NCBI GenBank assembly: GCA_976551045.1
Contig: CDPCPM010000076.1
Span: 26,350,001-26,414,000, forward strand
Reading direction: 5' to 3'
Length of the DNA: 64,000 nt
From: Glaucostegus cemiculus
Taxonomy: Eukaryota
How positions within the stretch are numbered: position 1 is the first letter of the stretch; every line of letters starts with the position of its first letter. The position numbers were made by a program, and so were the translations under genes. Below the pieces are notes generated by a model. The model saw nothing but the letters and a program-made list of their open reading frames with translations. It searched no databases and was not told the origin of the DNA. This document shows positions 14,569 to 59,784 of this stretch, piece by piece.

Positions 14569-15645
14569 TTTTTAAATTTCAAAATATACTTTATTCATAA
14601 AACAAAACTATATACAATAATAATGAGAGAAACCATTCACACCATTACATTCGTGTACAGATCCATTCTTAGTGTTACCTTTTTATATGTACAGAAAAAA
14701 AAACAGCACCGATGCCACACGTGTGGCTCCCTGGGGTGATACCCCAATCACATATTTACAACACTTGAGGGGCTTTCTTGCCTGACCCCGCCCCTCCCTC
14801 TCCTGTGGCAGAAAAACCCATGACTGACGTCCTTTCCCACCAAGCCCTTGCGCTGGCTGCGCCTAGCCTCAGTGCGTCCCTCAGCACATACTCCTGCAAC
14901 CTGGAATGTGCCAGTCGGCAGCATTCCTCTACGGACATCTCACAGTGCTGGGAGACCAACAACTCTCGGGCAGACCAAAGGGCGTCTTTCACCGAGTTGA
15001 TGACCCTCCAGCAGCAGTTGATGTCCGTCTCTGTGTGCGTACCCGGGAACAGCCCATAGAGCAGAGAGTCCTCTGTTATGCAGCTGCTGGGGATGAACCG
15101 TGTCAAGGAACCTTGCATCTTTCGCCACACCCTCCTCGCAAACCTACAGTCAGCAAAGAGGTGGGCGACCGTCTCGTCCCCAGCACAGTCCTCCCGGGGG
15201 CAGCGCGCGCTGGGGGTGATGCTCCGACCGTGCAGGAAGGATCTGACTGGGAGGGCCCCTCTCACCGCCAGCCAAGCCAGGTCTTGGTGCTTGTTGGTGA
15301 GTTGTGGCGATGAGGCATTCTGCCAGATGTTCTGGACAGTCTGCTCAGGGAACCACCCCACCGTGTCCATCGAATCCTTCTCCTGCAGTGTCTGCAGGAT
15401 GTTCCGGGCTGACCACTTCCTGATGGACTTAACGTCCAAGGTGTTGGTCCGGAAGAACTGTTCCACAAGGGACAGGTAGTGTGGCAACGTCCAGCTGATC
15501 GGGACGCCGTGTGGCCACGGGACCAGGCCCATCCTTCGTAGTGCCGGGGACAGGTAGAACCTCGGTACGTAGTGACACTTGGTGCCCACGTACTTGGGTT
15601 CCACGCACAGCCTGATGCAGCCACAGACGAAGGTGGCCATCAGGG
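14569..15645 (-). mobile_element. Tx1/L1-clade LINE, 5'-truncated and young (ORF2 C-terminal ~295 aa with zf-RVT, 3' UTR, A-tail)
   Basis: Uninterrupted ORF (track 14756-15661) with DLAWLAVRGALPVR, CPREDC...ETVAHLFADC and KDALWSAR. GC- and CpG-rich relative to its flanks. AATAAA and poly(A) at ~14567-14596. Confidence 0.92.
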
Positions 15646-18600
15646 CAGTTACCCAGAGCATCTAGCATAAAGCTCTGGTTACTTATTTTTATCTACTGCC
15701 TTCATTTGCTGGAATTGTACTTTAACAGTTAACATTAAACATAAGAATAGAGGAAGTATTACAACATTTAGAAAAAGAGAAATATTTTAATGGCTTCTGA
15801 TAAGGCTAAGGAAAAAGTATTAGTGTTTTTGAATATTTTTAATATGTATTGACTGACAAATGAATTCATTTAGTAAGATTTCTATGAGGATAGGATGAGT
15901 CCTATGAAGGATTGCTGCAAGCAATATACCACAGAAATCTGAGCAGAGTTTATTTGACCCACTTAACCCATGCAGTTTAAGTAAAGCACATTTACAACAT
16001 CATAAGAAAAACTATAGAGAGGTAAGTATCCCACCGAGTGTTAACCAATTCCCTCTGCTAGAATGATTTACCATCTCCATGTACATAATATTTTTTAATA
16101 ATAGGTATATGTGAAAATTGTGATTACAGTTGAATAATTAAATATGTTCAGTGATTATATGTCTGAATTGCCTTCCATTTTTACATTGAATCCTATTACA
16201 AAACAAATATTCAAAGGATCATCAAATCTGGAATCATTTGAAGCTGTCGTGTGAAGTTAAGCAGTTTTCATAAATCCTCCACTGTTGCTTCCAGCCCCAC
16301 AAGATCCTGTGAGGGGTGGGGTGCAGTGCGGGTGTGGAAATAGTATTTGATCAAAACAATCCCAAATGTAAATAGTACTGGGAAAGTATTCATAAAAGGA
16401 AGAATGTACAGAGCATTGCATATTTAAGGCAACAAGTTTCCCCTTTTCTATATTCAGTCTGTGCCACATGGGGACCATTTCCATTCTTTGAGAGCTATCA
16501 AGTGGGCTATGAATTTCTCACTGGCTTCTGATACCTTTGCTCAATGGATGATTGCTAGTGCCAACTGCATAAAAATCAGCCCATGGCAGATGGTGCTTTT
16601 TCCACAAGAAAGAAAACAAATCCAGACATCAACAAAGAGCACTGACATTTAATCAAATAGATAAGTGCAGTCACCATCAGAACAGGAGGCGGGTGGATAC
16701 TCTCTGGATAAAAGTACTGATACCAACCTGTGCAAATTGGAGAGAAAAACCCTACAATTAATTGTAAACTCCTATATAGGTGGAAAATGCACAGAATCAA
16801 GCCATTTATAAAGTTACACTGATGAATGAAAAATTAAATGTTCTGTGAACACTCACTATATTATGGATTCTAAAGCAGTAAGAAATCAATATTACATTTT
16901 GTTCAGAATATTCAGCCTAATATGGGACATTCCTTCTTCCAGACAATGGTGGGAAATTTTTGCATCATTTGGACAATGCTTCTTTTGTTAAGAAACTTTT
17001 ACGAAATCTCCTGTGATTGTCTTAGAGATTAACTATAACTACTTTCTTAATGCTGCTGGGAAGACTCTTGCTTTTCTATTTAGTTTATCTCTGGAGAGTT
17101 TTTTTTTGCTCTGATTGTGGAGTCAGCAGCAATACAGCTGAAGTGCTGGTGTGGTGTTAGCTCTTTTTAAAATCAATTAACACATTTAACACACAGAAGA
17201 ACAACCTTTACCCAGCATTAGCTTTAACATGCTTTTGCAGCAAACACTAAAGGACTTGTGCATTGTCAAAATGCATAAAACTTTTCAAGTAAACTACACA
17301 TGGGGCATTCAGACAATGCCAAAAATAATTGTGAACAATGAATGCATTAATTAAAACCGTAAAGCCGGAATAATGCAATTGAATTGAATCATCAAAAACA
17401 CAAATAACAGAAGAGAAGTCTGTAGACTTGCATGATATAGACTGAGAACTGACACAGTTTGTCAGCTTTTGCTCATGCAGCTCGAGGGTTAGAACATCAG
17501 TTTCTGCAATGACTTCAGCTTCTGCCCAGAGATGTAGAAGAACATGTGTTGCTGGATTTTAGACGTAGACTTTATGTAGAGCAATTAAGCAGGTGTGGCG
17601 GGGAGATGCAGGTGAAGGGGTTGGCTGTAGTAGTGAGGTCCAGAAATAGGAAGGATGACTGTGAGTATGGCCCTGGGAATCCAGACAGTTCACAGCTTTG
17701 CAGCATTTTCCTGTGCATCACCAGATATTAAAAAATAGGCTTATCTTTGGCTCTGATGCAAGGAATGTAATCTCATATGGCATGGTTCACAAAATGGATT
17801 ATTCTGCTGCATGGCCAAGGTCGTAAGTGTGCATTCTACTTGTAAAGTATCAATGAAGTTTTCTAGTCAGAAAATTCCCAAGCCTCGCTGACACTCTGGA
17901 GAATTCCCATTCTGCTTTTTTCCCAATTGCTATTCTTGTTTATATCCTTCCTGTCCCTGCCTGTGTATTAGATCATGTTGTAGGCTCTAAACACACTGTA
18001 AACTCACAAAGTACTCTGTACTAATTAGCCTCTTCCTGTTCTTAATGAACTAAACAGTGTCTTTAGAATTAAGATTGGATTATCGCAGTTCTGTCGAGTT
18101 TTTATTTACTCTAAAAGTTTGTGTTGAAAGACAATACAAAATGATAGCAGTAGCTCACTAAACTGGACAAAATGACTGTTGTGCTTGGGGTTTTTTTTAG
18201 AAACGTGCTTACTTTTCATTAAAGCTGAGAACAGTGCAGGCATTGCACAAATCAATTGGCTGCCTGCTTACTACTGCATTTACATAGAGCTTCCAAACAG
18301 GGATTTCTTCCCTTTAGTCCTAATAAAATTTAGATTTTGGAGTGAAAAGGGGAATCAAGAAAAACAAATAGTATTAAAATTAAAAGAGTGTGTAAATGAG
18401 GATGAAGAGTTCCCCAAGGACCTAATAACTGGTCATTTCTAGTCCTTCAGAATTGCTGTTTATCTGATCCAATTAAATGTTCCAATCCAGTGTGGAGTCC
18501 AATTACCTAAAACAGCACTGATCACAGGGAATAGGAAGGTGGACACCTAAGACCAGGACATCAAGAGTTCTGACCACTGAAAACAAATCTGGCAGCAGGA

Positions 18601-30984: not shown

Positions 30985-32170
30985 CCTTCTCTACTTATTT
31001 ACGAAAGCAGCAGGAATGGAACAGAAGTGGGCTATTCAACTCCTGTACATGATTTGCCATGCAATATAATCAGGATTCATTTCTTACTTCAGCAAAAGTT
31101 TCCTTCATTAATCCCATATCCCTTGGTATTCTTAATACCTATACAAATATCAATCCCTGCCTTGAATATACTCAGCAACTGAGCCTCCTCTGCTATCTTG
31201 CACAGAAAATTCTAAAGAATCACTACCATTAAGTGAAGAAATTTCTTCTCATCTCTGTCCTTAGTGTCCAAATCCTTTATTCTGTGCACTTCCAATTCTA
31301 CACACTTCAGTCACAGGAAACATCAACTCCACATTAAACCTGATCCCCATATTCAAATTATTAATATAGGCTGTGAACAGTTGGGGCTCTATCGCTAATC
31401 CCCAGGGAACATCACTAGTGATAATCTCCCAGCTTGAAAGTGATCCACTTATTCAAATTCTCTATTTTCCCTCCTTTAGCCAATTCTCAATCCATGTCAT
31501 CAATACTATGTGCTTTTAGTTTGTTTAGTGATCTCTTGCATGGCACCTCACCGAAGGCTTTCTTAAAGTCTACATCCTTTACATCAATTGCTTTGCCCTT
31601 GTCCATATTGCTAATTACAACCTCAAAAAAATTCCAACAGATTTGTCAAACATGATCTCCTTTTATGAATAAATCCATGTTGAATCTGGTCAATTTAATT
31701 ATTATTCCCCAAGTGTCCTTTTACTACTTCCATTATAATAGATTGCAGTATTTTCCTACTACTGATGTCAGGCTCTTTGTTCTATCATCCCATTTTCTCC
31801 TTCCCTGCTTTCTTAAATAGTAAGGTTACAATTGCCACTTTCCAATCAGTTGGAAGCATTCTAGACTCATGAAATTTTGCATCCACTATCACCATTGCCA
31901 TCTCCTTCCAAACCCTAGAATACAGGACCTTGGGTCCCAGAGATATGTTGCTTTCCAGTCCCTTTAATGTCACCAATATCAATGCCTTTTCAATAATGCT
32001 ATTTTTGAGTCTTTTGCTTACTCCAGATCTGAAGACATCCATTATTACTGAAAAATACTTTTTCTCTGCTTCCCTGAAGACAGACACAAAATAATCTTTA
32101 ATTTCTAAGCAATTTCCTTCTTTTCCAATATAATTTCTCTTATTGTACTGTGGGATGCATATTAACTTTT
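30985..32170 (-). mobile_element. Older CR1 LINE fragment (RT region plus 3' end)
   Basis: ORF 31785-32087 contains SLGPKVLYSRVWKE...DWKVAIVTLLFKKAGKEK; CR1 tail at ~31000-31250. Confidence 0.85.
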
Positions 32171-32172
32171 AG

Positions 32173-33372
32173 AACAGAGAACATAGAACAGCAGAGTACA
32201 AAACAGGCCCTTCAGCCCACAATGTTGTGCCAACATAGCTAATCACTTCTACCTACAGAATGCCCATATCCCTCTATTTTCCTCTCATTCATATGCCCAT
32301 CCAAGCCTCTCTTAGAAGCCCCCACTGAATTTGCCTCCACCACCCTATCAGGCAACGCATTCCAGGCATCCACCACTCTCTGAGAGAAAAATATACCCCT
32401 CACGTCTGTTCTGAACCTACCCCCCTCTCACTTTAAATGATGCCCTCTGGTACTGGATTGCTCAATAATGGGAAAAAGATATTGCTTGTCCATGCTATCT
32501 ATGCCCCTCAATTTTAAACACTTCCAACAGGTCACCCCTCAGCCTCTGCCGCTCCAGAGAAAAGACCCCAAGTTTGTCCAGCCTCTCCTGATAGCACATG
32601 CCCTCTAATCCAGGCAGCTTTCCAGTAAACCTCCTCTGCACCCTCTCAAAAGCCTCAACGTCCTTCCTATAGTGAGGTGACCAGAGTTGCATGCAATACT
32701 CTAAATGCGGCCTAACCAAAGTTCTATAGAGATGCATCATAACTTGACTCCTACTCAATACCTCAATTAGTGAAAGCAAGCATTCCACGAGCCTTCTTAA
32801 TCACCCTATCTACCTGTATAGCCACTGTCAATGAGCCATGGATTTGCACCCCATGTCTCTCTGCTCTATAACACTACTAAGGGTGTACTGCCTCTTGACA
32901 TTAGTCCTACCAGTTTGCAACACCTCACATTTATCCGGGTTAAACTCCATCTGCCATTTCTCTGCTCAAATCTGCGACTGATCTACATCACCCTGTATCT
33001 ATCGCCAGTCTTCTACACTATTCCCAACTCCACCAACCTTGGTATTGCCTGCAAACTTACCAACCCGTCCATCAACAAACTCATCCAGGTCAGTTATGTA
33101 CATCAGAAATGGCAGAGGTCCCAGTACAGATCCCTGCGGGACACCACTACTCACAGGCTTCCAGCCTGAATAAGTCCCTTCAAGCACCACTCTCAGTCTT
33201 CTATGGGCAAGCGAATTCTGGATCCACACAGCCAATTCTTAACTGACCCCATGCATCTGAACTTTCTTGATTAACCTATTATGTGGGACCTTGTCAGATG
33301 CCTTACTGAAGTCCATGCCTACCTTCGTCAATCTATCTGGTCACCTTGTTAAAAAACTCAACCAGGTTAGTA
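32173..33372 (-). mobile_element. Younger CR1 LINE 3' portion (RT to tail)
   Basis: GVPQGSVLGP, KFAGNTK (decayed FADD), LYRTLVRPHLEYCMQLWSPHYRKD, RLRGDL, and an agaacatagaac tail. Confidence 0.93.
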
Positions 33373-33639: not shown

Positions 33640-33925
33640 ACAGGGTTTATTTCTCTCCATAAATGCTGCCTGAACTGCTGAGTTCCTCCAGCATTTTGTG
33701 TGTGTGTGTTGCTTCAGATTCCAGCATCTGCAGAATCGCTTGTGCCAGAGTTATGATTGGTTGGAGATGGAAACTGTTTGTTGGAGGTGGGAATGTGGTC
33801 CAAATGTTAGTATTGACCCAAGGTATTAAACAGACAGAGCTGGAAAAAAAACCTTAATGGGTCAGGCAGCATCTGTGGAAAGAGGAAAAGTTAATATTTT
33901 AGGTCTGGGACCCTGCATTTCTTTG
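33640..33925. mobile_element. Two oppositely oriented Penelope-like terminal-repeat fragments
   Basis: atgctgcctgaactgctgagttcctccagc...ccagcatctgcag, then gggtcaggcagcatctgtgga...gttaatattttaggtctgggaccctgcat. Confidence 0.7.
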
Positions 33926-34801
33926 ATTTTCATTTATGGTCCCAGGAGTGTGGATGACAACTGGGAAGGCTGTTGCAGATGCAGAGAGATGACTGAAGAG
34001 TTGTCAAGCATGCCTGAACAAGATGGCAAAGAGATGAGTTGTCCACCTCCAACTCTCACAGGAGGCTGCGCACAGCTGGAAAGGCAGCATTTCCACTCTG
34101 GAATGACATGCAGCCGGTGTCAGGGTCCAGTGACAATTTCATTTTGCAGTGATTGATTGCTTATGTTCTTCGCCTTCCATGGAGGCATGGTAGAAAGGCC
34201 ATTCGAACATGTCTTGCCTCTGTGGAGACTTGTGTTGACCCTATGAATGAAAAGATGCCATCTGTCAAGAGCAAATTGTTTCTGTCTGGGAGTAGAGAAA
34301 TCCCCTCAACCCTGGGGTCAGATCGGACCCCATTCAGAGCTGATTGCTGTACAAACAATTCCAGCTGACTCATGGGAAGACAGTAGCAGGGACGTGGAAT
34401 GTGGTTGTTGGCTTTGGTATGTTAATGCAAAATGATGAGACTTGCAGGATCTTCAGGTATTTTAGATGATGCAGTGGTGATGTTAACTCAGTTTATGTGC
34501 TCTGAAGAAGCCAAACCAGTCAACAGTAGGACCAGAGAAGGCTAATCCAGACCGGGATAAAGACATTATCAGGTCACCATCCCCTGAGAAAATTTCACTC
34601 CAATCAAAATCTTACAATAGTCACCACTGAACTAAGATATCGGAGATCCATATTCCAATGAGCTCCTGGTAATGTTTCTACTTCACCCATTTTCAACCAC
34701 TGGATGAGCTCCAGCAGAAGTCTTATTAGATTGAGATGTTACAGATACTGTAAGGGGAAAGGTTGTCCACAGTGACTGTGGCTTGAAAAACAGTTCTTCT
34801 A

Positions 34802-34886
34802 CCCCACCTCTCCCTCCCTCCCTCCCCTCCTCCTCCTCCTCCTCCTCCTCCTCCCCGTCCTCCCCTCTTTTACCTCCTCCTCCCCT
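34802..34886 (+). repeat. (CCT)n / C-rich polypyrimidine microsatellite
   Basis: ccctccctccctcccc(tcc)n run, directly visible. Confidence 0.9.
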
Positions 34887-35778
34887 TGCCTTACCCAAGA
34901 TAGCTGTGAGCCTGCTCCAAGGTGCAGCCAAATAAAGAGAATACCAGAGTCTGGAAGGGACTAATTTCACAGACATATTTACACCACTTTGGGATCCATT
35001 GATTAGTTTGAAGAATATATTATTTGATGAGATTGGTCTTTAACCTGTTTCAATTGCTGTCCATTATGCTTTCAGCTGACATTAACTGGATCAATTACTC
35101 TAAGTGAATCTCATAACCCACCTCATAATGAAAATCTTGCATTGGTTGTTTGCTACAGGACAGATATCATGTAGAACTGATTAGACAGGTAGATTGATTG
35201 GAGAGGCTCAGATCCCTGATGTTAACAACCATTACAATGAAGTAATGCTCCTTTCTGGATGAAAGGTCCCTGTAACCACAGCTGGTGTGAGCATAATATT
35301 AGAACCTTTTTGCCAAGGCACTTCCATACCATGCACTTTGAAGAGTATGACTTATGGTTTGGTATTCAAATACCAAGCATTGTTTTGGCTTCAGAATGCT
35401 TGGTATGTTACAGTAGTATTGCCATTGTGTGATGTACAGTCCCTTTGCCTGGCAACTATGCAACAATATTTCATTTGACTCCTTGTGTAAAGTCAAATGT
35501 ATTTGAAGGGAACATAGGCCACTTTCACTGTGCCTCATTTCCAATGAAGCTATTTGTGTAGGCCAAGGGCATAGTTTCATAACTGCCACATTGCACAAAG
35601 TCCTGTGTGAATATATTTTATAATAATGATAAGAATTTTTGGTCTATTAAATTGTCACTGACTACACATTCAGAGATCCTCTCTTTCCTTCAGTGCATCA
35701 AATTGGCAGTTGTAGTAGACGTTCATCCCGCTAGCCTCCTTCTCAGACTCATCCCTCTGTGGCTTCCTTTTTTGATGT

Positions 35779-36510
35779 CCCCTAGGCAAGGGCTGAGTTC
35801 TTCTGTTGGCAATGTAGTGCAGAATGCAGAGGCGCACATTGAAGTATGTGATCCTGTTTGTGGTTATGGAGTGTGCCCTCAGATTGGTTCTGACAGCAAG
35901 ATCTCATCATGAGAAGCTGATGACAATCTTCAGCAGTCCACTGGTAGTCCAACAGTAATGTTCTCCACATGCTCTCAAAGTTACATTATCCTCACTACAA
36001 GTAAAGGGTTCCTTCTCCTGCACTGTGGAGCAACGGAGACGTCCCTCATGCAGTGGTCAACAGCAAATTGTGAGACGTAGCAGAGATCAGCCACAGTCAC
36101 CCAGAATGACCTGAATCTATGGGGTTTAATGTGACAGTGACTCAACCTTTGCAGGCAGAGTTGAAGATCTACCCATATATCACTGTGACCACTGTCTGAA
36201 AAAAAAGTAGCCTAATCAAATAAGAGACAATAGAGATTGTAGATGCTGTGATCTGCAACAAAAAAACAAACAGCTGGAGGAGCTCAGTGGGTCAGGCAGC
36301 ACCTGTGGAGACGGAAGGATGGTCATCATTTTGTGTTGAGCCCCTGCATCAGGATCTAAATCATCAACCATCCCTCAGGCTCCACAGATGCTGCCTGACC
36401 TACAGAGTTTCTCGAGCAGTTTGTTCTTTAGCATGAGCAGATACAATACGTCACAGAGGTTTAAATATGACTGTCTGTCCCTGTGGTTTCTGTGAAGATG
36501 TAGCTTGTGA
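35779..36510 (-). pseudogene. Harbinger (HARBI1-like) transposase remnant with internal deletion and a nested insertion
   Basis: HRDRQSYLNL...[insert]...VVTVI...VTVTLNPIDSG/SF.VTVADLCYVSQFAVDHCMRDVSVA...NQSEGTLH/YFNVRLCILHYIANRRTQPLP, versus the recalled R.SYLNL, VTVALNFYASGSF, GD.C.ISQFAVH.CIREVT.AL and DRSGG.LQY...VVCC.LHN.A..R.QPL. Confidence 0.8.
36220..36435. mobile_element. Fold-back (inverted) Penelope-like terminal repeat inserted in the transposase
   Basis: gggtcaggcagcacctgtggag...ggatggt pairs with accatcc...ctccacagatgctgcctgacc. Confidence 0.75.
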
Positions 36511-37197
36511 ACGTTTGTGCTTTTTTGCCTCCTGGGTTGGGATTCCTGACTTTGCCTGTGGAGCCTTCAATGCTTGACCTGAAGCTCCCATTCAAGAAGT
36601 GTGTGAGGTGTTTTCATCAGCAAGTGCACACCTACTGATGTTAAACCTTGTCCACCAGAATTTCCTAGCTTTCCTTTGGTTGTGGTTCAGGGAATCACTG
36701 TCTGTCAGCAGTCACAAATCAAGCAGCTCTCCAAAGTTTTAAAGGGCCTTTTATAGGACCACTCATACTGAAAAATTAAACTCTCCAGGCTGCTGTACAG
36801 TGCTCTGAAGGCTTTTTGCTCAGGCTGAAAAAAAGTCTCCTTGTCACCACAGACACTTCTCTGAAGCTCATTTGCTCTTTCAGCACCTGGAGTTGATTGC
36901 CATGGGTGCTTCCACTGTCTGCAGAGGTCTGCAGTAATCTGCAGGTGCTGACATGGCAAGCTTGATAGAAGTGTCCATGCTGATGAAGACTTTCTTTCAA
37001 TGTGAACAAACAACTTCTGAGAACTGTGCACCAACCAGGAAGAGTTTATACTTTCAACATGACTGGCCCTTTAAATGGCACTGCCCGAGGGCAAGCAGCG
37101 CCATGGAGACCTGTTTGATTTGTACCTGCTGAATGACAGTTATCATCTAATTTATAACAGATGAGCTTAGAAATGCTGGTGTTATAAGGATTGAATC

Positions 37198-49097: not shown

Positions 49098-49108
49098 TTT
49101 AATTTATT
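49098..49108 (-). promoter_or_regulatory. Candidate polyadenylation signal of the TMEM33-like gene (overlapping AATAAA/ATTAAA)
   Basis: First minus-strand AATAAA that I found downstream of the stop codon (~710 nt away), overlapping an ATTAAA and followed ~20 nt later by CA. No transcript evidence. Confidence 0.35.
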
Positions 49109-49816
49109 AACCTCATTAAACAAAAGCTTAAAAGCTATCAATCCCTGAGGGTGAGCTGAGAAAATGGAGGTCATTTGTTCCAACAAACTACGAGGAGAGC
49201 CTGAGCAATAAGCTTTATGTGTACTTTACAGTAATCATTTAGGATCTAGCCCTACATTTCTTTAAATATCTACACCTGTCAAACATGCAACTTTTAGTCA
49301 AGGTTTACACTAACCTAGCATTAAATAATCAATCTTTTACTAATAACCTACTCCCTAGTACCATTTTAAATTCTTGTGATGCAACGATGGTGATTTTTTT
49401 TCGACACGAAGGGTAGATGTTAAAGATATTGCATATTTGGGTTACATTTACTTTTGAAAAAAAATGCAAGAAAATGGATGATCAAGGGATGCATAGGTGC
49501 CATAGTAACCCAATGTCTGTTTTGCACTTGAATGGACAATGCACACAATCCTCAGAACAAATTGTGTATCCATATTCATATAAAATCCATTCTCATTGCC
49601 CTTTAATCAAATGCAAACATACCTTTAAAAAGGCAAACTTCATCATATGAAATTACGAACATAAAACAACATACACAAACTTCAGACATCATTCCTTAAA
49701 AGTAAACCAAAAACAAAACATACACAACAGAAACTACAGGAATATTCCACGGAATTCTAAAGTATAAAGGATGTCACCATTTGCAAATCATCTGATGTTA
49801 AGGAGAATCTCGAACT

Positions 49817-49943
49817 CTATGACCCTGGAGCCAGCTTACAGATGAGCTTTATAGCTTTGTGACATGCATTTCGGAGGAAAGTTGGACAGGAAGGTCTGGC
49901 TGTCAGCTGCTCTATTGCCACTCGAAGCTCATAAAACAATGTC
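49817..49943 (-). CDS. TMEM33: TMEM33-family protein, last coding exon (127 nt including TAG)
   Basis: Branch-like ctaac, pyrimidine tract and acceptor ttattaacAG. Translates (R)TLFYELRVAIEQLTARPSCPTFLRNACHKAIKLICKLAPGS*, aligning with the TMEM33 C-terminus RTLFNELR..E....P.CP.F.R..C...I..I..LAP. Phase matches the upstream exon; the intron is 49944-59700. Confidence 0.93.
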
Positions 49944-51149
49944 CTGTTAATAAAGAGTAGAAGGCCAGTTAGTTACTTCAAAGCATAACACACATATCTG
50001 CCATGCAAGACAATGTAGGCAGAGCAAAGCAATAAATTAAAGGCCTATCCATTTTATATTGAGTGGATGTCCTGTCTACTTACAAGTCTGTTCATCTGGC
50101 TAATGTAGAATGGCTGTTCACTTCAGTGGAATTGATCAAATTAATGTAGGAAAATTAAAATATTTAATAAATCACCTCTCAGCATCCTCTAAATACATTA
50201 TAGACCCGTTGAAGAATTTATGATCCCAATTAAACTATTAATGATCAGGTGTTTTCCTTGTGTTTAGATGCTGTAACAGATTTCCATTTATGATAATAAC
50301 CTGCATTATGAAGTTATTTATCATAAAACAGGGTCATAAGGTCACATTTTGCTCACATACAGGCAGAGTCCAACAGTCTTATAATACAGTTGACCAGTAA
50401 CCAGGACATTCCAATGCTACAATAGCCTGAACTTTGATTTCATAATTTGAGTTTGCTCAAAACAAGTTTAAAAAGCTGCTAATGGGGCCACAAAATCCAA
50501 GTTGATGAAAAATTGACCGAGAAATTCTATCTTCATTTTATGTTTTAAAAACTTGTCCAATGATATTGAGAATTTTTGCACAATAATACATGCTTAGCAG
50601 GAACTGTACATGTTTAGTATTTACCTATCTGATTTCTTTTACTGCTCCAAGAATTACCCAGAGCAAGTTATCTGATAGCAGGCCAGGTTTATTAAATTTT
50701 TCTGTGCGCTTTGGCTCAAAAAGATTTTTACCCCATATGTGGCCTGATGTGTGAGCTGATAACAGGGCTGCAAGGGCAAGAGGAACACTGGTGAATGCTG
50801 CAAACAACACTGAATGATGGGAACTGACCGGATTAAAAGATTGAGAAAGGAACAAAGCACTGGAATGGTACAAATTTTAGCAGGTGAATTCAATATAACT
50901 GCATTACAGAAAAAGAAAGATTGGGTTTTGAGAAAGAGATAAAGTGAGAAAAAATTGACCATTTTAAAATCTAAATCCATTCACAACTTGAACAAACAAT
51001 ACAATGCACTTTTTATTTTTCACTTTGAGATTGGCTGCTATTAGCAATGATCACTTCATCAGGACGATTGTTAAGCTATTAATTATTGGCTTTAACTTTC
51101 TGTGGTACGTTTAATGAGTATAGCAACATGAGAAGCACTGGAAGGTTAA

Positions 51150-51705
51150 GGACGAAAGGCCGTTTGCATGAAGCGGATCATGAAGCAGCAGAATTGCAAA
51201 GCAACTTGAGCCAATTCACAACTCAAAGGGTCGCTCTTCCTTGCTGCAAGAGATTTGCACGTTTATAACAGTGCGCTTTGAGAATCCAACCCATACCTCT
51301 GGGCTGGGAGAAGCCTGCAAAGCCCAGGAACTCCTTGCAAGGAGGCTCTGTCCTTGGGAAACAAGGGAAACGATGATAAACTCTGCTCGCCTAAAAGCCT
51401 TGATGATCTGACTGGTAGGGAAGTGGACCGCAAATTGTGAAGTCAGCTTTTATGGCCTCAGGTCTGTCGCAAAGAAATTAAATGCCAAAGTCCCCTTTAC
51501 TTCATGAGTAGGATGGCCAGGGCCCTATTCTGTAAATGCCTCTGCATGATGTGGCAGAATTCCCTGACCAGCACCTTGGAGGAAAACTGCCTCCTAAGGC
51601 ATAAGTTTGCAGTTGCATGACTTTCTGAGAAGTGCTCCTGACTGGCACACATACTTCTTGATTGGAAATTTGTGGTCCTCCTTCTCCTTCATCAGGTAGC
51701 CCCAC
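51150..51705 (-). pseudogene. Second Harbinger transposase fossil, inside the last TMEM33-like intron
   Basis: LCLRRQFSSKVLVREFCHIMQRHL/GPGHPTHEVKGTLAFNFFATD...QIIKAFRRAEFII...FLGFAGFSQPRG, versus the recalled CLRRLR.S...V..IC, GGH.LPVAVKVT.ALNFFASG, VTDALF.RA..FI.F and F..IAGFP.VQG. Confidence 0.7.
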
Positions 51706-54057
51706 TCAGGGAATCTTCTATTTATTTCCTGAAATGATGAACTCAGGTCTCTAGGCACACCAAGCTTCTATGACCCTTACTGATAGGCAAATGGGCTGTA
51801 AATTGCATTGCCAGTTATCATTGCCCAAATCCTGTGGCAAAGGGATGTGACCATGTCTGTTGGCAAGACAGTCTATAAAGGCTTCAGAAATAAATGATCT
51901 CTTTTCTGTCCAAGATTTCAATCTCTCTACAGGCTCAACTGCAATTCAACCCCCATGATATAAATAACTGATGACCCCTTTACACAGTGCATGAGGGCGC
52001 GGTCTTTTCCTGCTATTAACAGTGCAGCAAGTTCATTGACATAGCCCAATTTGGCAGTGCTTGTGTGAATTTAGTATTGCCTGTGGCTTTACGCCATCAG
52101 CTGGCCACTCCACATACTTCTCACACTGCATGCATTATAGCGTTACCTAAATTAACAGTTGCTATGATGTGTTGAGACTGTGTGCTACGAGGGTCAGTGC
52201 CTCAAACAGAAGGCACTCCACTAGCCAGGAGTTCCAAACACCAGCAGTAAGCAGCCCACTACTCCCCACACCCTCTGGTTTCTAACACAAAAGCAGCACT
52301 GCAGAGGGGTCATGTAGGGGTCAAAGTAATGAGAGGAGTGTTCCATCTAAACACTTGAAAATTAATTTTAAATTCTTCACTGATGTTAACAAGGAAGCCC
52401 AAATCATGTAGATTTTAAGTGCAAAATTAACCTTTCTGACTTATCAGACAAGTCAGCAATTCATGTTATAAAAAAAAGGAGTTCGTGAGTTAAGAAAAAC
52501 AGAACTGTTGTAACCAATACAGACACACTCAACTGATGTTCAATGCATGTATTTCTGTAAATGGATTTATTTTATTACCGACACCCCTACTCGCTGCTTT
52601 ATTAATACTCAGAATTTCCAATGACAGCAAACACATTAACCGTGCTTGGATTTTGGAATGCAATCAAAGGATTCATTGCTCCATGACAGCTTCAATCAAT
52701 ACAGCAGCAGATACAAGCAAAGCAGCTTGATGAAGGTGCATTTATGCTTATAATTTTTAAACTCCCTGGGCCATGCACATAAACAAATTGATTGAGTTTT
52801 CAAAATGAGCATTAGACTAATATCGGAGGGTAAAAAATAAGGCACAAGTCAATGAATGCATCTCACTGGTAAAAACTTGCATGGCATCAATCATTTCCAT
52901 CCAACTGAAATTAAATACATGTTCCATTCTACAGCTTTTCCTAGAATAGTTTCCATTCCCTGCATTTTCCACTGTGTATACTTTCAGGTATTGCAATGGT
53001 ATAAATTAAACCGTAATTGGGCAAGTCGAAAAGAAGGGAAAGGGCATTGAGAAGCTGCATCTCCACAGTGCTGCCATTTTTTCCATAGATTAATAAAATT
53101 CATTTTCCACTTTATTGCATTGTTAATAAAAAAATGTACTGTTACTGAAAGCTTTTAGTGCATAACAATGCTACACCGATTTCTGTTAGGTGTGGAAATC
53201 TATCAGTCCTCAAGTAACAGCAGGAGCTTCATCCCACAGTGGTAAAAACGAGTTTAAATCATTTGATTTTTAGGAAACTAAATATATTCTGATGTAGGGA
53301 ATTATGGTAATTACATTCATTAGTCTGGTTCAGTACAAAAGGAGTTGATCCAGAATGCTTACTTTTAACATAACGATTAATAACAGAAAACTTTTGAAGA
53401 TTGATAATGATAGTGTTTTATTTAATGCATTCTCCTGTTTTGGCCTTCAGTGCTAAAAACAATGTTATCCAGTTGCACTTGCCAAGTTGTGAAGAAAGGC
53501 TGTTCAGAAGTTCTGCTGGCAGATGACCTCATGGGGCTTCAGGCATTCTTTGCATATCATCAGCTATCAAACGCACTGATGGGCAATGGTCAGATGCTGT
53601 GAAGCTTAAACCAAAGACTTGTCTTAATCCCTGTTCTGTGACATGATTAATGAGATGGAATTCCCATTCTGGGCTTCCTACCAATCAATAGGCAGATGGG
53701 CAGCGGTAGATGCAGACATTCAAAGTAACGAGAGAGTAGAAACTGCTGAAGCCCTTGATAATATCAGCTCGGGCAATTGGGTTAGAAAGAATTTTTTTGA
53801 CATTTAATGAAAATTTGATTGCACCCTAGACTATTGTATAATTCTGACTGGCTGACAAGGTGCATCAGTACACATTACACACAACATTGACTTTGGTTCC
53901 ATTTGTAGAAGCTCAATCCCATTAGTCGTGACAGTTGAGTTCCTACATCTTTGCAGTTTTATACATATTTTTTTCTTTACTCTGGCTAAAAGAATGTACC
54001 ATTTGTTTTAAATAATGCCCAGCACAGGTTTTATGCATTGGTACTGAATCAAAATAA

Positions 54058-54520
54058 TGGCCTGAAATTTGGTGGGTTTTGGGGTAGTTCTGCATTTCTC
54101 AGCAGAGGTGCCCCAAAGTTTTAACACCTGCACAAACACAGAATATCCTGAATTTACTAGCCGAGCTCTGCCACAATTTCTTGGCTACTTTATGCCACTG
54201 GATTCCCCACAGAGCCCAGCAGTGTAGCAGGAGCTGGCTGAGATTTCCCAGCACAAGCTCTCAGATCCTGTGCCAAGTCAGACCTGGAGAAGGATCCACA
54301 AGCACTACATTTGAATGGAGATTTTAGGGCTGTGGGGAAGAAAGGGAATAATTTGTATTTTTTCAAAAATGTCATTTAATATTTTATTTAAATTTGTTCT
54401 AAATGATTATAGATTTGACTTTTTTGTTTAAAGTCAACAATGTAAAACTTTGAACATTTATTTTACTGTTAGATGTTATTGTTACAATTGCATGGGGCAC
54501 TGCTTCAAAAGATGAGGCAA
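54058..54520. mobile_element. Probable old non-autonomous DNA transposon remnant
   Basis: Begins ggcctgaaattt (Harbinger-like end), then a GC-rich and an AT-rich segment. Confidence 0.3.
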
Positions 54521-55054
54521 ATAGTTTAATTTAAAAATGCATGCATTTTTTATGCTGGCAGATGCCATCCAATATCTCAACCCCATTAAGCATTTTGATA
54601 GGAAAATATGTTTCCATTGTCTGCAGAAATGCAAGGTCATAATCTATACAAAGCAAATGTTTGACAGAATACTTTTAAATCAAAGAGTAGTCAAGCCAGA
54701 AAATGCCCTGCCTGAAACAATGGTGGAAGTGGAATCCATACAACTTAAGGAAGTAGCTAAGTTTGTGAAAAGAAAACTTTTAAAGGAAGGGAAAAACTGT
54801 AGGAGAATAAGACATAGAAACTCAATGCACAGTAAAGGATGCCCTAGTTGGGTATGACAGTGTGATACCAACAAAGCGTTAGATGCAACTCACTACAGAG
54901 TAGGATTGGGTAGGAGAAAGAGAAGGGAAAGTGTGTGATTCCTTGGCTGGCTTGTGTCTTAATATGGTTACAGAGCTGAGATGTTTTTGTTGCCCTAGGA
55001 GTGCCCAGTAACAGGAGCTTCTGGAACATCCTGGGTCACAACCTCTGACACTAC

Positions 55055-55540
55055 CTAACCACCAGGATGTGATTACACTGGAAAGGGTGCACAACAGATT
55101 TAACAGGATATTGCCTGGGATCAACCATTTCAATGACAGGAAAGACTGGATAGGCTAGGGTTTGTTTTCCTCGGAGTGAAGAAGGTGGACCTGACTGAGG
55201 TGTACAAAATTGCAAGGGGCATAGGTAGGCTATTTCTCCTTCGAAGAGGTGTCTATAACTAGTGGGCATATGTTGCAGTGAGGTGTAGGAGATTTAGAAG
55301 GGATGTATCGAAGATTTTTCTTCAAATCCAGAGGATGGTTGAAATCTGGGTCACACTGCCTTTGTGGCTGGTAGGGGGGGGGAAGTAATGCCTCCCACAT
55401 TTAAGAAATATTCAGATAAGCCCTTAAAACATCATAGCATTAAAAGTGACATGTTGAATGCTGGAAACTGGGATTAGTAGAGATAGGTAATTGATGGCTG
55501 GCACAAACGTTGAGGACCAAAGGGCCTGTTTCTATGATTA
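55055..55540 (+). mobile_element. CR1 LINE 3' fragment
   Basis: QDVITLERVHNRFNRILPGI...ERLDRLGFVF; tail ggaccaaagggcctgtttctatg. Confidence 0.85.
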
Positions 55541-57999
55541 AATTTCCCCACAATACTGCAAAAGGGGAGTTGCAAGGATACAGAAACAACTGATGTCTAC
55601 GGTTTTGCTCACTCTCAAAGGAAACACAGAAGCTGAAGAGCCAGGATAAATTATCAATCTGCAAACAGTGATGACCACAACACTCAACATCGGGAAAATG
55701 AGAGAAATTTTTAATCAATAGATAGTTGATGGCTTGTATTCTGTATAGTTGTATCAATTTTTGATGTGCAACTTACTTTCAGTCATGACATCAAACAGTT
55801 CTTCATTAAGGATTATTAGTGAATATAATAATAGCATCAGGTGATTAGTTAATTTGAATCACATTATCTGTTTGTTGCTACGGACAGAGTAAAATTATCC
55901 TCACACCAAAATACGTAAATTTGGACACCCAAATCTTGGCTGCAACTGTATGATGCAATCAATATTAAATAATCTTCACTGCAACCTTTTGGCAGAAGCA
56001 CCTATCATTTAATTGGCTATTTTGTACTCTCAGCAATTTGTAAAATTTGTCATTTAAACTATTCTCAGAATGAGTTTTCGCATTAGTCAGCACAACATCA
56101 TGGGCCAAAGGGCCTGTACTGTGCTGTAATGTTCTATTATCAAATTTAAGTTGTTTTTCCAAAGTGACTAACTGTATCAGCAATAAATATGGTATGCAGA
56201 TTCATGGGACTGGCCATATTCATTCAGCAACATTTGTCATTATTGATAACAAATTGGTCATACTCTGCAACGCGTCTATTCCTTTAGCTTTGTATTAAGG
56301 ACTTTCTTTGTTTGACATTTGCTATTCATTTTTCATCAATGATTGATTTAAAATCAGGTTCAGCATTGCATCAACCCAGGTTTAACCATTTATGCTTCAT
56401 CCTTCAACAGATTTAAACAGTTGCTGCTTTCCATTCTCTCCTGTAATGGGCATTAGATGACATACATCTCAAATATAGTCTCCTTTTCACTGTCATGCAT
56501 ATAATCCATCTGCTGCCTTTAGAAATTCAATGATTCACTACTAACTAATTGCACCTCAGTGCTAATTGTTTTTTAAATATGATGCCGAGGGTAGTTCAAG
56601 AATTCAGACTGCATATGTAACTTGACTATTTACTGTGTCTGCATGAAATTCACAGATGGCTCTCTTAGTTTGCTCCTATGAATGGATGGCGTTCACAGAT
56701 ACGTGTTCAGCTCAAATTCTACGGTTGCAGTTCAGTCTGTTCCCACAGTCACTGCCCAAATTGTTTCATGCAATTCACCGGAATAGTTATGGTAATTCTT
56801 TATCACCATGCAACTGTAGTGCCGTCTATTGTCACTTCAGACTATATTGAATATCCAGATAGGTACAAGTTAGTCAAAGGATTCTGGATCTCTTGTGCTA
56901 AAACAAAGTGACTATCAAAATCTTTCTAAAGGAATTAACAAAATTTGCACCAAATTTCAGAGATTTTTAGATTCCTTTCAAATCACATCATCTAGTAACT
57001 TCCAGGTCTATTCTTTCTTATTGTTCCTCCCCATATCAATAGTCTCCTCTCAACTACATTCTCAACCCAGCCTTAATTAAAAAAATCAATACAACAAATT
57101 GGTCAACTTCCTTCAGAGAATATGCTTTTGGGTCACAGCTTGCATTACTAAACAATGATCCCTTCCATGCCATAAAATAGGGTCAAGAAAATTTTAATGT
57201 AACGTTTGGAGACAATTTCATCATGCCCTTTGCAAGTTCAACCGACAAAACAGCCCTCACATTTGGTGACATCAACCTCATTCTACCACATCCTTTACTC
57301 GCTGGAACTGTTTCCAAGATGATTAGTTTCCTCATGTTTATTGAGCTCTCTATTTTCTCCTCAATAACACTCAATTTTCTCCATCAAAGGCACATATCTG
57401 GGGAAATGCTTCTGACACATCTTTCCTATTTCAAGATGAAAACAGAGCGATAAGCTTGTCATCTGATTGGTGATACTCTTATCTTCACTCTTCAACTCCT
57501 TTCCTGTCAACTCAAATTTTATATTTCTCTAGGTGATATGAGATGACTTTGGTCAATGCTCCACTGACTTCCACTGTTCCTCCAAAGTTTCAGATTTACT
57601 AAATTAAATTTCTCCTTCATAATGTATCATAATTTTGTGGAAGATTTACTGTATTCTTCTGTAATTTTCCAGTGTTGGCATCATACATTAAATAATCTAG
57701 AGGAGCACCTTGCATTCAATACTAAGATCCAATATTTCCAAGATTCAGTTACCTGAACCTTACAGCATATAGATAACATTTTTCCTGAAGAGATTAATTC
57801 AGTCACATTAGTCACATTATAAATAGCAGTTTTAATGCTAATTTAATCCATCATTCCAACAGCTGGACATGTTGCCAACATTTTCCTTTGAGAAGGTACT
57901 TCTCAGTGAGACTAAGCTGTATCAATGACATCAGACCAAATGTGTGCTGTCCGGAAAATGACAAATGAAGTGTAGCAAATTTATTTAATTCTTATACAG

Positions 58000-58408
58000 A
58001 AGCAAAAGACTGTGGACCCCAGAAACCTGAAATTAAAACTGAAAATACTCAGCACGTCTGGTAGCACCTGTGAAGAGGAAAAGTTAACAGCTCAGGTCAA
58101 TGAGCTTTCATCAGGACTGGGAAAAGAAATGCAACGAAACAGGTTTACAACTACAGTTTAGATTTCTTCAAGACAATGCTTTGACCACCCTCTAAGTGAG
58201 CACAACCACTATTCACTTTTCCAATCTCCATCCTGTCACAGACCTTCCCCTTTTGTTCTCTCTGGCCCTCCCCCTTTCCATACAACTTATCACTAGTTTC
58301 ATTTCTGACTTTTCCCAGTTCTGATGACAAGTCATCAAGCTGAAATATTAACTCTGTTTTGTCTCTCCACAGATGCGGCCTAGAGCTGAGTATTTCCAGC
58401 ATTTTCAT
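58000..58408. mobile_element. Inverted pair of Penelope-like terminal repeats (58000-58130 on -, 58200-58408 on +)
   Basis: gttaacagctcaggtcaatgagctttcatcaggactggg versus cccagttctgatgacaagtcatcaagctgaaatattaac...ctccacagatgc. Confidence 0.75.
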
Positions 58409-58651
58409 TTTTTTTATTTACAGTGTGGTAACAAGCCCTTTTGGCCCTCCGAGTCCACGCCGCCCATTTTAAACCCCCAAATTAACCTACCCGTACGTCT
58501 TTCAGAACGTGGAAGGAAACCGGAGCACCCGGAGGAAACCCATGCAGACACGGGAGAACATACAAACTCCTTACAGACAGCGACGGGAATTGAACCCCGA
58601 TCGCTGGCGCTGTAACATCGTCGCGTTAACCGCTACGCTATTGTGCCGCCT
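58409..58651 (-). mobile_element. Young full-length tRNA-derived V-SINE
   Basis: Reverse strand: ggcggcac start, A-box TAGCGTAGCGG, B-box GGTTCAATTCC, V-domain gggtttcctccgggtgctccggtttcc, CR1-like tail and A-rich end. CpGs are retained. Confidence 0.92.
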
Positions 58652-58694
58652 TAACACTACTACATTCTTATTACTGAAACTAAGTTCACAGTCG

Positions 58695-59000
58695 TACGAA
58701 CAAACGAACTAGGAGCAGGATTCTGCCAATCGGTCTCTCACACTACAGAGCTATTCATTGAGATGGCGACTGACCCAATTGTATCCTGAACATTCCATCT
58801 ACTCCTGGTACCCTTTCACCCACTTGGCTTCACCCACCCAATCTGCTTTCAATGCCCTTGAAGGAAGAGAGTTCCAAAAGATCCTCAAGAGAAAAATAAT
58901 CATCTCATCTGTCTTAAAGGGGTGACCTCTAACTCCAGATTCTCCCACAAGAGGAGACATTCTCTTCACGGGCATTTTACTGTTAAATTCTGTTATGTTT
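58695..59000 (-). mobile_element. Old CR1 3' end
   Basis: gaactaggagcagga tail; the reverse frame reads PLVGESGVRGH...WNSLPSRALKA. Confidence 0.7.
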
Positions 59001-59700
59001 GAAACAATTCTATTGGCTTTCTGTGAACACAAGTATACATATTTTAAATTCTGCTTTTATGGCAAATACTAAGATTTTAAAATTAAAAAGCTTAAGATAA
59101 ATCTTGCAAACCACATTTTTTTAAGGAAATTATATTGGAAAATATGCTATAACCAAGTGAAAGAATATTGCTGTTGGATGACTTACAATGTGGGATACGT
59201 GCAAAGCCTATGATGTGGGATCAGAGTGATGACCTAAAATAGACGTACAAAGCAATATTTTTATCCCCTTTTCTCTCAAGATATGATTTAGAAATTCTTT
59301 AAGATAGGTGACTTTGATTCAGTTGAACAAATATGAAAAAAAAGTGTAATTTCTGCCTGAATTCACATTTAAATGTCCAAATGATTAAAAACATGTTATT
59401 TGAACATTGACAGAAATTGAAAAATGTTCATGCAATTTCAAGATCTTTCAAACAGATACCAGAAAATAAAATGCTCTATTTTAGTCTGTTCAAAACTTCA
59501 AGCCTTATGAACTTATGCCCAGCAACCTGATCTATAAGATCTGCAGCAAGAATAGTTTAGCTAATGTTGTGTAATATTTAGGGATGAATATAGCATTTCT
59601 GAAGATCATCCATCTAGACATTACTTTGTACACTCTGTAACAGTGATCACTCTGTTCAAACACATCAGCAATGGTGGATGGAAAAAAATGTTTTACCTAC

Positions 59701-59784
59701 CTGCAGTAAGGATTTCTCCTAGACGCATACCTTAAGGTCAGGAAACGATAATAGAAAAAGGGGAGGAATAAATGAGCCCGGCCA
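59701..59784 (-). CDS. TMEM33: TMEM33-family (Pom33/Per33/Kr-h2) ER membrane protein, penultimate coding exon (84 nt, phase 2-2)
   Basis: Acceptor tgtgtttgtttcacAG and donor ag|GTaggt. Translates (x)GRAHLFLPFFYYRFLTLRYASRRNPYC(R), matching the TMEM33 signature PFIYYRFLTLRYSSRRNPYCR. Splices in frame to 49943. The symbol denotes the family; orthology versus paralogy is unresolved. Confidence 0.95.

What the first reader, a model, noticed from the sequence alone, without database searches (positions are those of the whole stretch)
49817..59784. Divergent TMEM33-family gene missed by the ORF track: probable second vertebrate TMEM33 paralogue
Seen in sequence: two canonical, phase-compatible exons encode GRAHLFLPFFYYRFLTLRYASRRNPYCRTLFYELRVAIEQLTARPSCPTFLRNACHKAIKLICKLAPGS*, with no disablements. 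Recalled knowledge: mammalian and teleost TMEM33 keep GQGSLLQPFIYY and SIAFISRLAPT almost unchanged, and TMEM33 is usually treated as single-copy. Here both segments differ (GRAHLFLPFFYY, AIKLICKLAPG), while the YYRFLTLRY.SRRNPYCRTLF.ELR core, the P.CP motif and the exon phases are kept. That much change is unexpected for an orthologue in a slowly evolving chondrichthyan. Inference: an intact paralogue, possibly a 2R ohnologue lost in bony vertebrates, with an altered C-terminal amphipathic-helix region.
Basis: partly seen in the sequence, partly recalled or inferred. Interest (0 to 1): 0.75.

Follow-up and report, generated by a model that had tools for sequence, protein, structure and literature searches.

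The report
Second TMEM33 gene of cartilaginous fishes
These are the last two exons of a second copy of the ER membrane protein TMEM33 that sharks, rays and a chimaera carry beside the usual gene; databases already label it 'TMEM33-like', it probably dates from the early vertebrate genome duplications, and it was not found among the bony-vertebrate proteins examined.

Summary
In detail: two minus-strand exons (59784-59701, 49943-49817) with AG/GT ends, matching phase and no stops encode the C-terminal end of a TMEM33/Pom33 protein. The gene is a real paralogue. Its orthologues are annotated 'transmembrane protein 33-like' in 12 cartilaginous fish species, and three of these species also show a canonical TMEM33 only 59-62% identical. 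Trees place shark canonical TMEM33 with bony vertebrates, so the duplication probably predates the shark/bony split. A shark-only duplication is disfavoured but not firmly rejected (AU p 0.04-0.15), and 1R versus 2R is unresolved. None of 64 named bony-vertebrate hits belongs to it. One correction: the flagged C-terminus is not the paralogue's innovation. It is as close to hagfish and amphioxus as canonical TMEM33 is, or closer, and stays amphipathic; the paralogue's excess change lies in the transmembrane part outside the window. Synteny, lamprey, expression and dN/dS were not testable. Verdict: new member of a known kind (a probable ohnologue retained in cartilaginous fishes), already in databases, not found described in the papers searched.

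The parts
59701..59784 (-). Penultimate coding exon (84 nt, phase 2 to phase 2). Holds the family's Tyr-delimited nine-residue motif (YYRFLTLRY) and the SRRNPYC loop.
   Evidence: Pfam PF03661 173-199, E 9.5e-10; 25-27 of 27 residues identical to the eight full-exon chondrichthyan TMEM33-like proteins compared, 18-20 of 27 to canonical. Orthologue isoforms P0012/P0013 diverge just before it and P0011 just after it.
59725..59733 (-). Second, in-frame splice donor inside exon A (AAG|GTATGC, cut between 59731 and 59730). Its use would drop 10 codons, including the last Tyr of the nine-residue motif and the SRRNPYC loop.
   Evidence: Ranks 40 of 3403 GT sites; phase-compatible with exon B; database isoforms of Heterodontus (P0007) and Cetorhinus (P0008) lack exactly these 10 residues. 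Use in this genome not shown.
49944..59700 (-). Last intron, 9,757 nt, GT-AG, phase 2
49817..49943 (-). Coding part of the last exon (41 codons + TAG): two predicted helices joined by the P-x-C-P turn; the last helix is amphipathic and basic
   Evidence: Pfam 202-239, E 2.7e-9; 40 of 41 identical to Mobula TMEM33-like; helices 223-240 and 246-262 in the model of the Mobula orthologue; hydrophobic moment
49103..49607 (-). Candidate polyadenylation signals in the probable 3' UTR (ATTAAA at 49607-49602, AATAAA at 49108-49103)
   Evidence: Motif scan only; such hexamers are common in this AT-rich DNA, so this is weak

Best explanation
The two exons end a functional, intron-containing second TMEM33 gene ('TMEM33-like') found across cartilaginous fishes. 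SHOWN: family membership, two copies in the same species, a well-supported clade spanning chimaera, sharks and rays, and conservation equal to the canonical copy. INFERRED (about 0.85): it arose before cartilaginous and bony vertebrates split, most simply in one of the two early vertebrate genome duplications, and was lost on the bony-vertebrate line. INFERRED mechanism (about 0.45): it works like TMEM33/Pom33/Tts1, as a multipass ER/nuclear-envelope protein whose TM3-TM4 region and first cytosolic helix send it to curved ER, where it tunes reticulon-driven shaping and Ca2+ handling, with the last amphipathic helix lying on the membrane. After duplication the copies changed in different parts: the paralogue mainly in helix 42-62 and around the TM3 motif, the canonical copy more in the cytosolic C-terminal helices. 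Because swapping the TM3-flanking segment of yeast Per33 into Tts1 moves it off tubular ER (PMC4230586, section 6 read), the likeliest functional difference is ER sub-domain or partner preference, or tissue-specific expression, not a new activity.
For: Pfam hits. 10 of 12 candidates passed and all 10 are chondrichthyan 'TMEM33-like', 76-98% identical. Both copies in Callorhinchus milii, Chiloscyllium punctatum and Narcine bancroftii, on contigs of different listed length (17.9/139, 88.5/181, 180/376 Mb). Within-species identity 59-62%; paralogue across chimaera and elasmobranchs 84-87%, canonical 87%. Paralogue clade 100/100; shark canonical plus bony 98/96 and 96/90. 10 columns unite shark canonical with bony vertebrates while the paralogue looks like the outgroups, against 2 uniting the paralogue with shark canonical. 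The 69 columns encoded by the window reject a shark-only duplication alone, p-AU 0.005. 64 of 64 named bony-vertebrate hits carry canonical states, at most 2 of 23 paralogue states. The P-F-H-Y spacing of the TM3 motif, EDSCHY and the nine-residue motif are kept. Models of both copies have the same helix order, pLDDT 82 and 84. Stem lengths: N-part 0.37 paralogue versus 0.07 canonical; C-part 0.20 versus 0.35.
Against: On the whole protein a shark-only duplication is not firmly rejected: p-AU 0.133 and 0.038-0.148 over four models; on the N-part alone p 0.41. The paralogue stem and the single hagfish row are long branches (0.6 and 1.3). No flanking gene was found in the window, so ohnology rests on trees alone. 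Absence from bony vertebrates rests on word-seeded protein searches (120 of 301 hits listed; 112), not on genome searches, and 18 of the 64 rows helped define the diagnostic sites. The reciprocal pattern is post hoc and modest: breakpoint permutations reached the observed value 1, 5 and 42 times of 300 with amphioxus and 32-47 of 300 with hagfish; in the C-part the paralogue beats shark canonical for 8 of 16 outgroups and bony canonical for only 4 of 16. No expression, localisation or dN/dS data. The upstream exons of this very locus were not seen.
Confidence: 0.82

Rival explanations
1. The copy arose by a small-scale duplication on the stem of cartilaginous fishes, changed fast at first and then stabilised. 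Bony vertebrates never had it, so nothing was lost.
For: Found only in chondrichthyans. Long stem of 0.6-0.7. AU test does not reject it under mixture models, p 0.133 and 0.148, nor on the N-part, p 0.41.
Against: RELL weight only 0.015-0.05 on the whole protein; rejected on the C-part, p 0.005; 10 versus 2 informative columns; it needs reversion to hagfish/amphioxus-like residues; different contig lengths in Narcine argue against a tandem copy.
Confidence: 0.12
2. It is the species' only TMEM33, a fast-evolving orthologue.
For: The window itself holds only one locus; the rest of this genome could not be searched.
Against: The exons are 57-65 of 68 identical to the TMEM33-like clade but 37-38 of 66 to shark canonical TMEM33, and three relatives carry both.
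Confidence: 0.01
3. The locus is a decaying pseudogene or a weakly expressed relic in this species, or the whole clade is dispensable.
For: Upstream exons unseen. Many database isoforms have aberrant ends or skip the last exons (P0008, P0010-P0014, P0155), which could mean noisy splicing.
Against: 65 of 68 residues match Mobula and Chiloscyllium plagiosum; strong splice sites; 84-87% identity between chimaera and elasmobranchs, like the canonical copy.
Confidence: 0.04

Closest known systems
Chondrichthyan 'transmembrane protein 33-like' (NCBI/UniRef records, e.g. Mobula hypostoma P0001, Amblyraja radiata P0006, Callorhinchus milii P0009)
   Same: Direct orthologues: 57-65 of 68 residues identical over the two exons, same exon ends.
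   Different: Nothing of substance. These are automatic names; no functional or evolutionary study of them was found.
Canonical vertebrate TMEM33 (PF03661)
   Same: Same Pfam family, helix order and invariant motifs.
   Different: 59-62% identical; 23 of 233 columns are fixed differences. Several full-length paralogues have an N-terminal tail about 20 residues longer. Last helix more amphipathic and basic: moment 0.52-0.60, net +4 in 5 rows, versus 0.35-0.48, +2 or +3 in 8 rows.
Yeast Pom33/Per33 pair and S. pombe Tts1
   Same: A TMEM33 duplicate pair; in yeast the copies differ in pore versus ER location (PMC2878943, passages) and the TM3-flanking segment matters for this (PMC4230586, section 6).
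   Different: Independent duplication; Per33 lost the motif proline whereas the shark paralogue keeps it. No localisation data for the shark pair. PMC2878943 states that only one orthologue was found outside Saccharomycotina, which this gene contradicts.
Early-vertebrate duplicates kept in cartilaginous fishes and lost in bony vertebrates (general class)
   Same: Same pattern of retention and loss; the class is established (own knowledge; related titles such as PMC13023373 seen only in the listing).
   Different: Ohnologue status here lacks synteny.
TMEM120A, ceramide synthases (TLC domain) and ELOVL7
   Same: The top six structural matches for models of both copies: Z 7.8-10.1, rmsd 4.4-7.1 A, 155-192 residues aligned.
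   Different: 4-10% identity; Foldseek E 0.4 or worse; Z is under the caution line of about 13 for helical bundles; residue-level active-site match not visible. A family-wide lead, not specific to this paralogue.

Membership tests
TMEM33/Pom33 family (PF03661) | Score above the Pfam gathering cut-off | tested here: met
   38.7 and 37.2 bits for the two exons separately, cut-off 24
TMEM33/Pom33 family (PF03661) | Nine-residue Tyr-delimited motif in the first cytosolic helix (PMC4230586) | tested here: met
   YYRFLTLRY in exon A, in helix 204-217 of the orthologue model; matching it to the Tts1 motif is by spacing and position, not by alignment with Tts1
TMEM33/Pom33 family (PF03661) | TM3 motif Pro + three aromatic/His residues at four-residue spacing (PMC4230586) | tested here: met
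   P134, F138, H142, Y146 in full-length orthologues; this part is outside the window
TMEM33/Pom33 family (PF03661) | Amphipathic C-terminal helix | tested here: met
   Hydrophobic moment 0.52-0.60 over residues 246-263 in 5 orthologues; helix predicted
TMEM33/Pom33 family (PF03661) | ER/nuclear-envelope location and reticulon binding | not testable with these tools
   Needs cell work
Canonical TMEM33 orthologue group | Groups with shark canonical and bony-vertebrate TMEM33 | tested here: not met
   Separate 100/100 clade; 0 of 23 canonical diagnostic states in full-length orthologues
Canonical TMEM33 orthologue group | Lies in the LIMCH1-PHOX2B-TMEM33 block (PMC2446394, one passage, teleosts) | tested here: inconclusive
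   No neighbouring gene detected in the window
Vertebrate 1R/2R ohnologue | Duplication after amphioxus and before the cartilaginous/bony split | tested here: inconclusive
   Favoured: pre-chordate origin rejected, p-AU at most 0.005; shark-only origin p-AU 0.04-0.15, 0.005 on the C-part
Vertebrate 1R/2R ohnologue | Position on a paralogous chromosome segment | not testable with these tools
   No eukaryotic genome collection; only differing contig lengths seen
Vertebrate 1R/2R ohnologue | 2R rather than 1R (cyclostome outside both copies) | tested here: inconclusive
   Hagfish outside p-AU 0.72-0.87, with the paralogue 0.35-0.64, with canonical 0.07-0.16; no named lamprey protein among the listed hits
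Processed retrocopy | No introns | tested here: not met
   9,757-nt GT-AG intron
TLC / ELOVL / TMEM120 helical-barrel superfamily | Shared six-helix membrane fold | tested here: inconclusive
   Top six of 48,161 chains for both models, Z 7.8-10.1, unrelated bundles at 7.6-7.8
TLC / ELOVL / TMEM120 helical-barrel superfamily | His-based acyl-CoA site | not testable with these tools
   The tool gives ranges, not residue pairs; invariant H114 and H142 exist but their equivalence is untested

The most novel reading that the evidence does not exclude
Cartilaginous fishes keep a vertebrate counterpart of the yeast Pom33/Per33 split: two ohnologues that divided the ancestral job by domain, the paralogue keeping the ancestral basic amphipathic C-terminus while remodelling its transmembrane surface, and the canonical copy doing the reverse. 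It may be the orthologue of the hagfish gene, so 1R in age. If, as both models hint, TMEM33 belongs to the TMEM120/ceramide synthase/ELOVL fold, the pair would be a natural experiment for finding an unrecognised lipid- or acyl-CoA-handling activity of the family.
Probability: 0.15. Interest if true: 0.65.

Novelty: new member of a known kind. Interest (0 to 1): 0.36.

Why it matters
TMEM33 has been described as single-copy outside budding yeasts (PMC2878943, passage) and is needed for VEGF-driven Ca2+ signalling and angiogenesis in zebrafish (PMC6374405, passages), yet its molecular action is unclear. A second vertebrate copy, conserved from chimaera to rays, corrects that statement, adds one gene to the list of probable early duplicates kept only in cartilaginous fishes, and offers 23 fixed differences as natural chimera points for mapping ER targeting. 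It also warns that canonical TMEM33 is not the ancestral state at its C-terminus. The impact is limited: the gene is already in databases, the class is common, and no new function is shown.

Tried and rejected
Bony-fish member: P0121 (Acipenser sinensis) outscored all canonical proteins (154 versus at most 137 bits), but it is a canonical TMEM33 with a repeated internal block (0 paralogue and 11 canonical states). Rejected.

Synteny inside the window: Pfam scans of 18 and 144 ORFs (a selection favouring ORFs of 70 aa or more and exon-like ORFs, out of 701 ORFs of 40 aa or more counted), splice-site scans and Rfam found no neighbouring gene, only retroelement pieces. A GC-richer stretch at 33.8-37.1 kb has 41-55 stops per frame and no credible Pfam hit.

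Cluster membership of the ten best hits could not be looked up, so further species inside those clusters are unknown.

Literature: tmem33 + paralog (38 papers, 20 listed), tmem33 + shark (4 papers, none on topic), and tmem33 with cartilaginous-fish terms (30 of 4,572 listed, none holding tmem33) gave no description of this gene. Supplements of PMC8302630, PMC3964593 and PMC11406177 had no TMEM33 entry; PMC8455134 lists only orthogroup OG0005304 with 43 proteins in 37 taxa; the supplement of PMC11979771 could not be read and bioRxiv supplements were closed, so an ohnologue table could hold it unseen. No paper linking TMEM33 to the TLC/ELOVL/TMEM120 fold appeared in the listings.

No solved relative by sequence (one weak hit E 0.009 without a passing stretch); Foldseek found nothing at E 0.001 or better; the ESM Atlas returned only TMEM33 clusters. 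Unnamed protein hits were left out of all analyses, so a paralogue member hidden among them is not excluded. Truncated or odd-tailed isoforms (P0008, P0010-P0014, P0095) were dropped from the trees. The search of unnamed representatives and the complex prediction were not used. My notebook entry 4 wrongly lists P0014 as using the second donor; one search shows it uses the whole exon in another frame.
Full report
OBSERVATION. On the minus strand, 59784-59701 is an 84-nt exon with acceptor TCACAG and donor GTAGGT, and 49943-49817 is a 127-nt stretch from acceptor TAACAG to a TAG stop. The 9,757-nt intron is phase 2 and the split codon gives Arg. The two peptides match consecutive parts of Pfam PF03661 (TMEM33_Pom33), each above the cut-off on its own. 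A canonical shark TMEM33 finds both exons at E about 1e-8, against a best E of 0.64 in 20 shuffled windows. Only these two exons are in the window; no upstream exon lies in the last 4.2 kb.

WHAT IT IS. The 41-residue peptide of the last exon retrieved 10 proteins among 12 candidates, all named 'transmembrane protein 33-like' from sharks, rays and a chimaera, 76-98% identical. Two further searches with the Mobula orthologue brought this to 15 records from 12 species and showed a separate 'transmembrane protein 33' in three of those species: Callorhinchus milii, Chiloscyllium punctatum and Narcine bancroftii. Within a species the two copies are 59-62% identical over 231 columns, whereas shark canonical TMEM33 is 83% identical to coelacanth. 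The window's exons share 57-65 of 68 residues with the seven TMEM33-like proteins that have both exons complete, and 37-38 of 66 with shark canonical proteins. The source is therefore a cartilaginous fish, most likely a shark or ray, and the locus is the TMEM33-like gene. The copies sit on contigs of different listed lengths; for Narcine that points to different chromosomes, though the figure is a per-cluster maximum.

IS IT FUNCTIONAL? Chimaera-to-elasmobranch identity is 84-87% for the paralogue and 87% for the canonical copy, so both have been held to a similar degree since those lines split. The family motifs named in PMC4230586 (section 6 read) are present by spacing: Pro-x3-Phe-x3-His-x3-Tyr at TM3 and a nine-residue Tyr-delimited motif in the first cytosolic helix. 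AlphaFold models of the Mobula paralogue and of a bamboo shark canonical protein have the same order of helices, mean pLDDT 82 and 84 (both from the same 43 sequences, so not independent). Expression and dN/dS were not testable.

WHEN DID IT ARISE? In a 53-row tree the paralogues form a 100/100 clade, and the three shark canonical proteins join 27 bony-vertebrate proteins at 98/96. In a 31-row tree with hagfish and without truncated isoforms, the values are 100/100 and 96/90, the two groups join at 90/97, and hagfish is unplaced on a long branch. Tests are less decisive than these supports. A shark-only duplication has p-AU 0.133 and 0.055, 0.038, 0.065 and 0.148 under four models, with RELL weight 0.015-0.05. 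It is rejected by the 69 columns encoded in the window (p 0.005) but not by the 161 N-terminal columns (p 0.41). Ten columns unite shark canonical with bony vertebrates while the paralogue looks like the outgroups, against two that unite the two shark copies. An origin before amphioxus is rejected (p at most 0.005). Hagfish outside both copies (2R-like) and hagfish beside the paralogue (1R-like) are both acceptable; hagfish carries 7 paralogue and 6 canonical states at 23 diagnostic sites. No named lamprey protein was among the listed hits. I put an origin before the cartilaginous/bony split at about 0.85. Whole-genome duplication is the simplest cause but is unshown without synteny.

LOSS IN BONY VERTEBRATES. 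All 64 named bony-vertebrate hits carry canonical states, with at most 2 of 23 paralogue states. They include bichir relative Erpetoichthys, paddlefish, bowfin, coelacanth and lungfish. The one apparent exception, a sturgeon record, is a canonical protein with a repeated block. This is absence from word-seeded protein searches with partial listings, not from genomes, and 18 of the 64 rows helped define the sites.

WHICH PART CHANGED? Against outgroups the polarity is largely the reverse. Hagfish matches exon A at 24 of 27 residues, more than any canonical protein compared (18-20). Over the window's region the paralogue is 0.67 and 0.66 identical to hagfish and amphioxus, shark canonical 0.57 and 0.57, bony canonical 0.66 and 0.61. 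In the N-terminal membrane part the paralogue is further from the outgroup than shark canonical for 16 of 16 outgroups, which are not independent. On a fixed tree the stems are 0.37 (paralogue) versus 0.07 (canonical) in the N-part and 0.20 versus 0.35 in the C-part. The last helix remains amphipathic and is more basic: moment 0.52-0.60 and net +4 in 5 paralogues, 0.35-0.48 and +2 or +3 in 8 canonical proteins, 0.60 and +4 in hagfish. Results against a clean reciprocal story: in the C-part the paralogue is closer than shark canonical to 8 of 16 outgroups and closer than bony canonical to only 4 of 16; breakpoint permutations were clearly significant for 2 of 6 comparisons; the split was examined after the pattern was seen; and the paralogue has its own derived residues there too, such as H201 and K261.

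HOW IT MOST LIKELY WORKS. From the literature: TMEM33-family proteins are ER and nuclear-envelope membrane proteins with cytosolic ends (PMC2878943, passages). [quoted passage not shown] Zebrafish tmem33 is needed for VEGF-driven Ca2+ oscillations (PMC6374405, passages). By inference the paralogue does the same kind of job. Its fixed differences lie in helix 42-62 (4), from 123 to 133 just before the TM3 proline (5) and from 197 to 207 (5), among 23 of 233 columns. In yeast, replacing the TM3-flanking segment with that of Per33 spreads Tts1 over the whole ER (PMC4230586). The most likely difference between the shark copies is therefore ER sub-domain or partner preference, or tissue of expression (about 0.45); plain dosage redundancy is the alternative. 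None of this is shown.

TWO SIDE OBSERVATIONS. First, exon A holds a second in-frame donor at 59731/59730, and database isoforms of Heterodontus and Cetorhinus lack exactly the 10 residues it would remove. That form would lose the last Tyr of the nine-residue motif and the SRRNPYC loop. Whether it is regulated or noise is open. Second, for models of both copies the six best of 48,161 solved chains are all TMEM120A, ceramide synthases or ELOVL7 (Z 7.8-10.1, rmsd 4.4-7.1 A, 155-192 residues). The agreement is suggestive, but Z is below the tool's caution line for helical bundles, unrelated bundles reach 7.6-7.8, and Foldseek gave E 0.4 or worse. It is a lead for the whole family, not a property of this paralogue.

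WHAT IS KNOWN. The gene is in NCBI and UniRef under an automatic name. PMC2878943 says only one orthologue was found outside Saccharomycotina; PMC9804665 (passages) mentions extra TMEM33 copies only in Paramecium. Searches found no paper on a chondrichthyan copy; the library lacks most subscription journals. The whale shark paper's supplement lists 43 TMEM33 proteins in 37 taxa without saying, in what I saw, which taxa have two. That duplicates kept in cartilaginous fishes and lost in bony vertebrates are a common class is my own knowledge, consistent with titles listed.

VERDICT. Real and correctly read; a genuine paralogue; probably older than the jawed-vertebrate split and lost in bony vertebrates; 1R or 2R unknown; the C-terminus is the conservative part rather than the innovation. 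New member of a known kind, interest 0.36.

Noticed in passing
window 59731/59730, minus strand: In-frame second splice donor in exon A; Heterodontus and Cetorhinus database isoforms lack the same 10 residues, which include the SRRNPYC loop.
   Followed up: partly
models of P0001 and P0018 (whole family): Both models match TMEM120A, ceramide synthases and ELOVL7 as their six best structures, Z 7.8-10.1; no paper making this link appeared in the listings.
   Followed up: partly
P0018, P0019, P0064 residues matching window exons: Shark canonical TMEM33 is further from outgroups in the C-terminal part than bony-vertebrate TMEM33 for 12 of 16 outgroups, as might be expected if keeping a second copy relaxed it.
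   Followed up: no
window 49839, minus strand: Weak internal donor in exon B (TCT|GTAAGC) near the point where Cetorhinus and Carcharodon isoforms P0008 and P0010 switch to a different tail; no matching alternative last exon was found in the window.
   Followed up: partly
window 14756-15661, minus strand: 301-codon open fragment of a non-LTR retrotransposon with a zf-RVT domain, E 3.8e-11; GC-rich and probably young.
   Followed up: no
window 31785-33240 and 1631-1988: Decayed reverse-transcriptase (LINE-like) pieces; RVT_1 E 0.001; two copies 78% identical over 367 nt.
   Followed up: no
window 33800-37100: GC-richer, coding-looking stretch with a (CCT)n tract at 34802-34886, but 41-55 stops in every frame and no credible Pfam hit; unexplained, perhaps a decayed element.
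   Followed up: partly
P0121 (Acipenser sinensis record): Mispredicted canonical TMEM33 with a repeated internal block that inflates search scores.
   Followed up: yes
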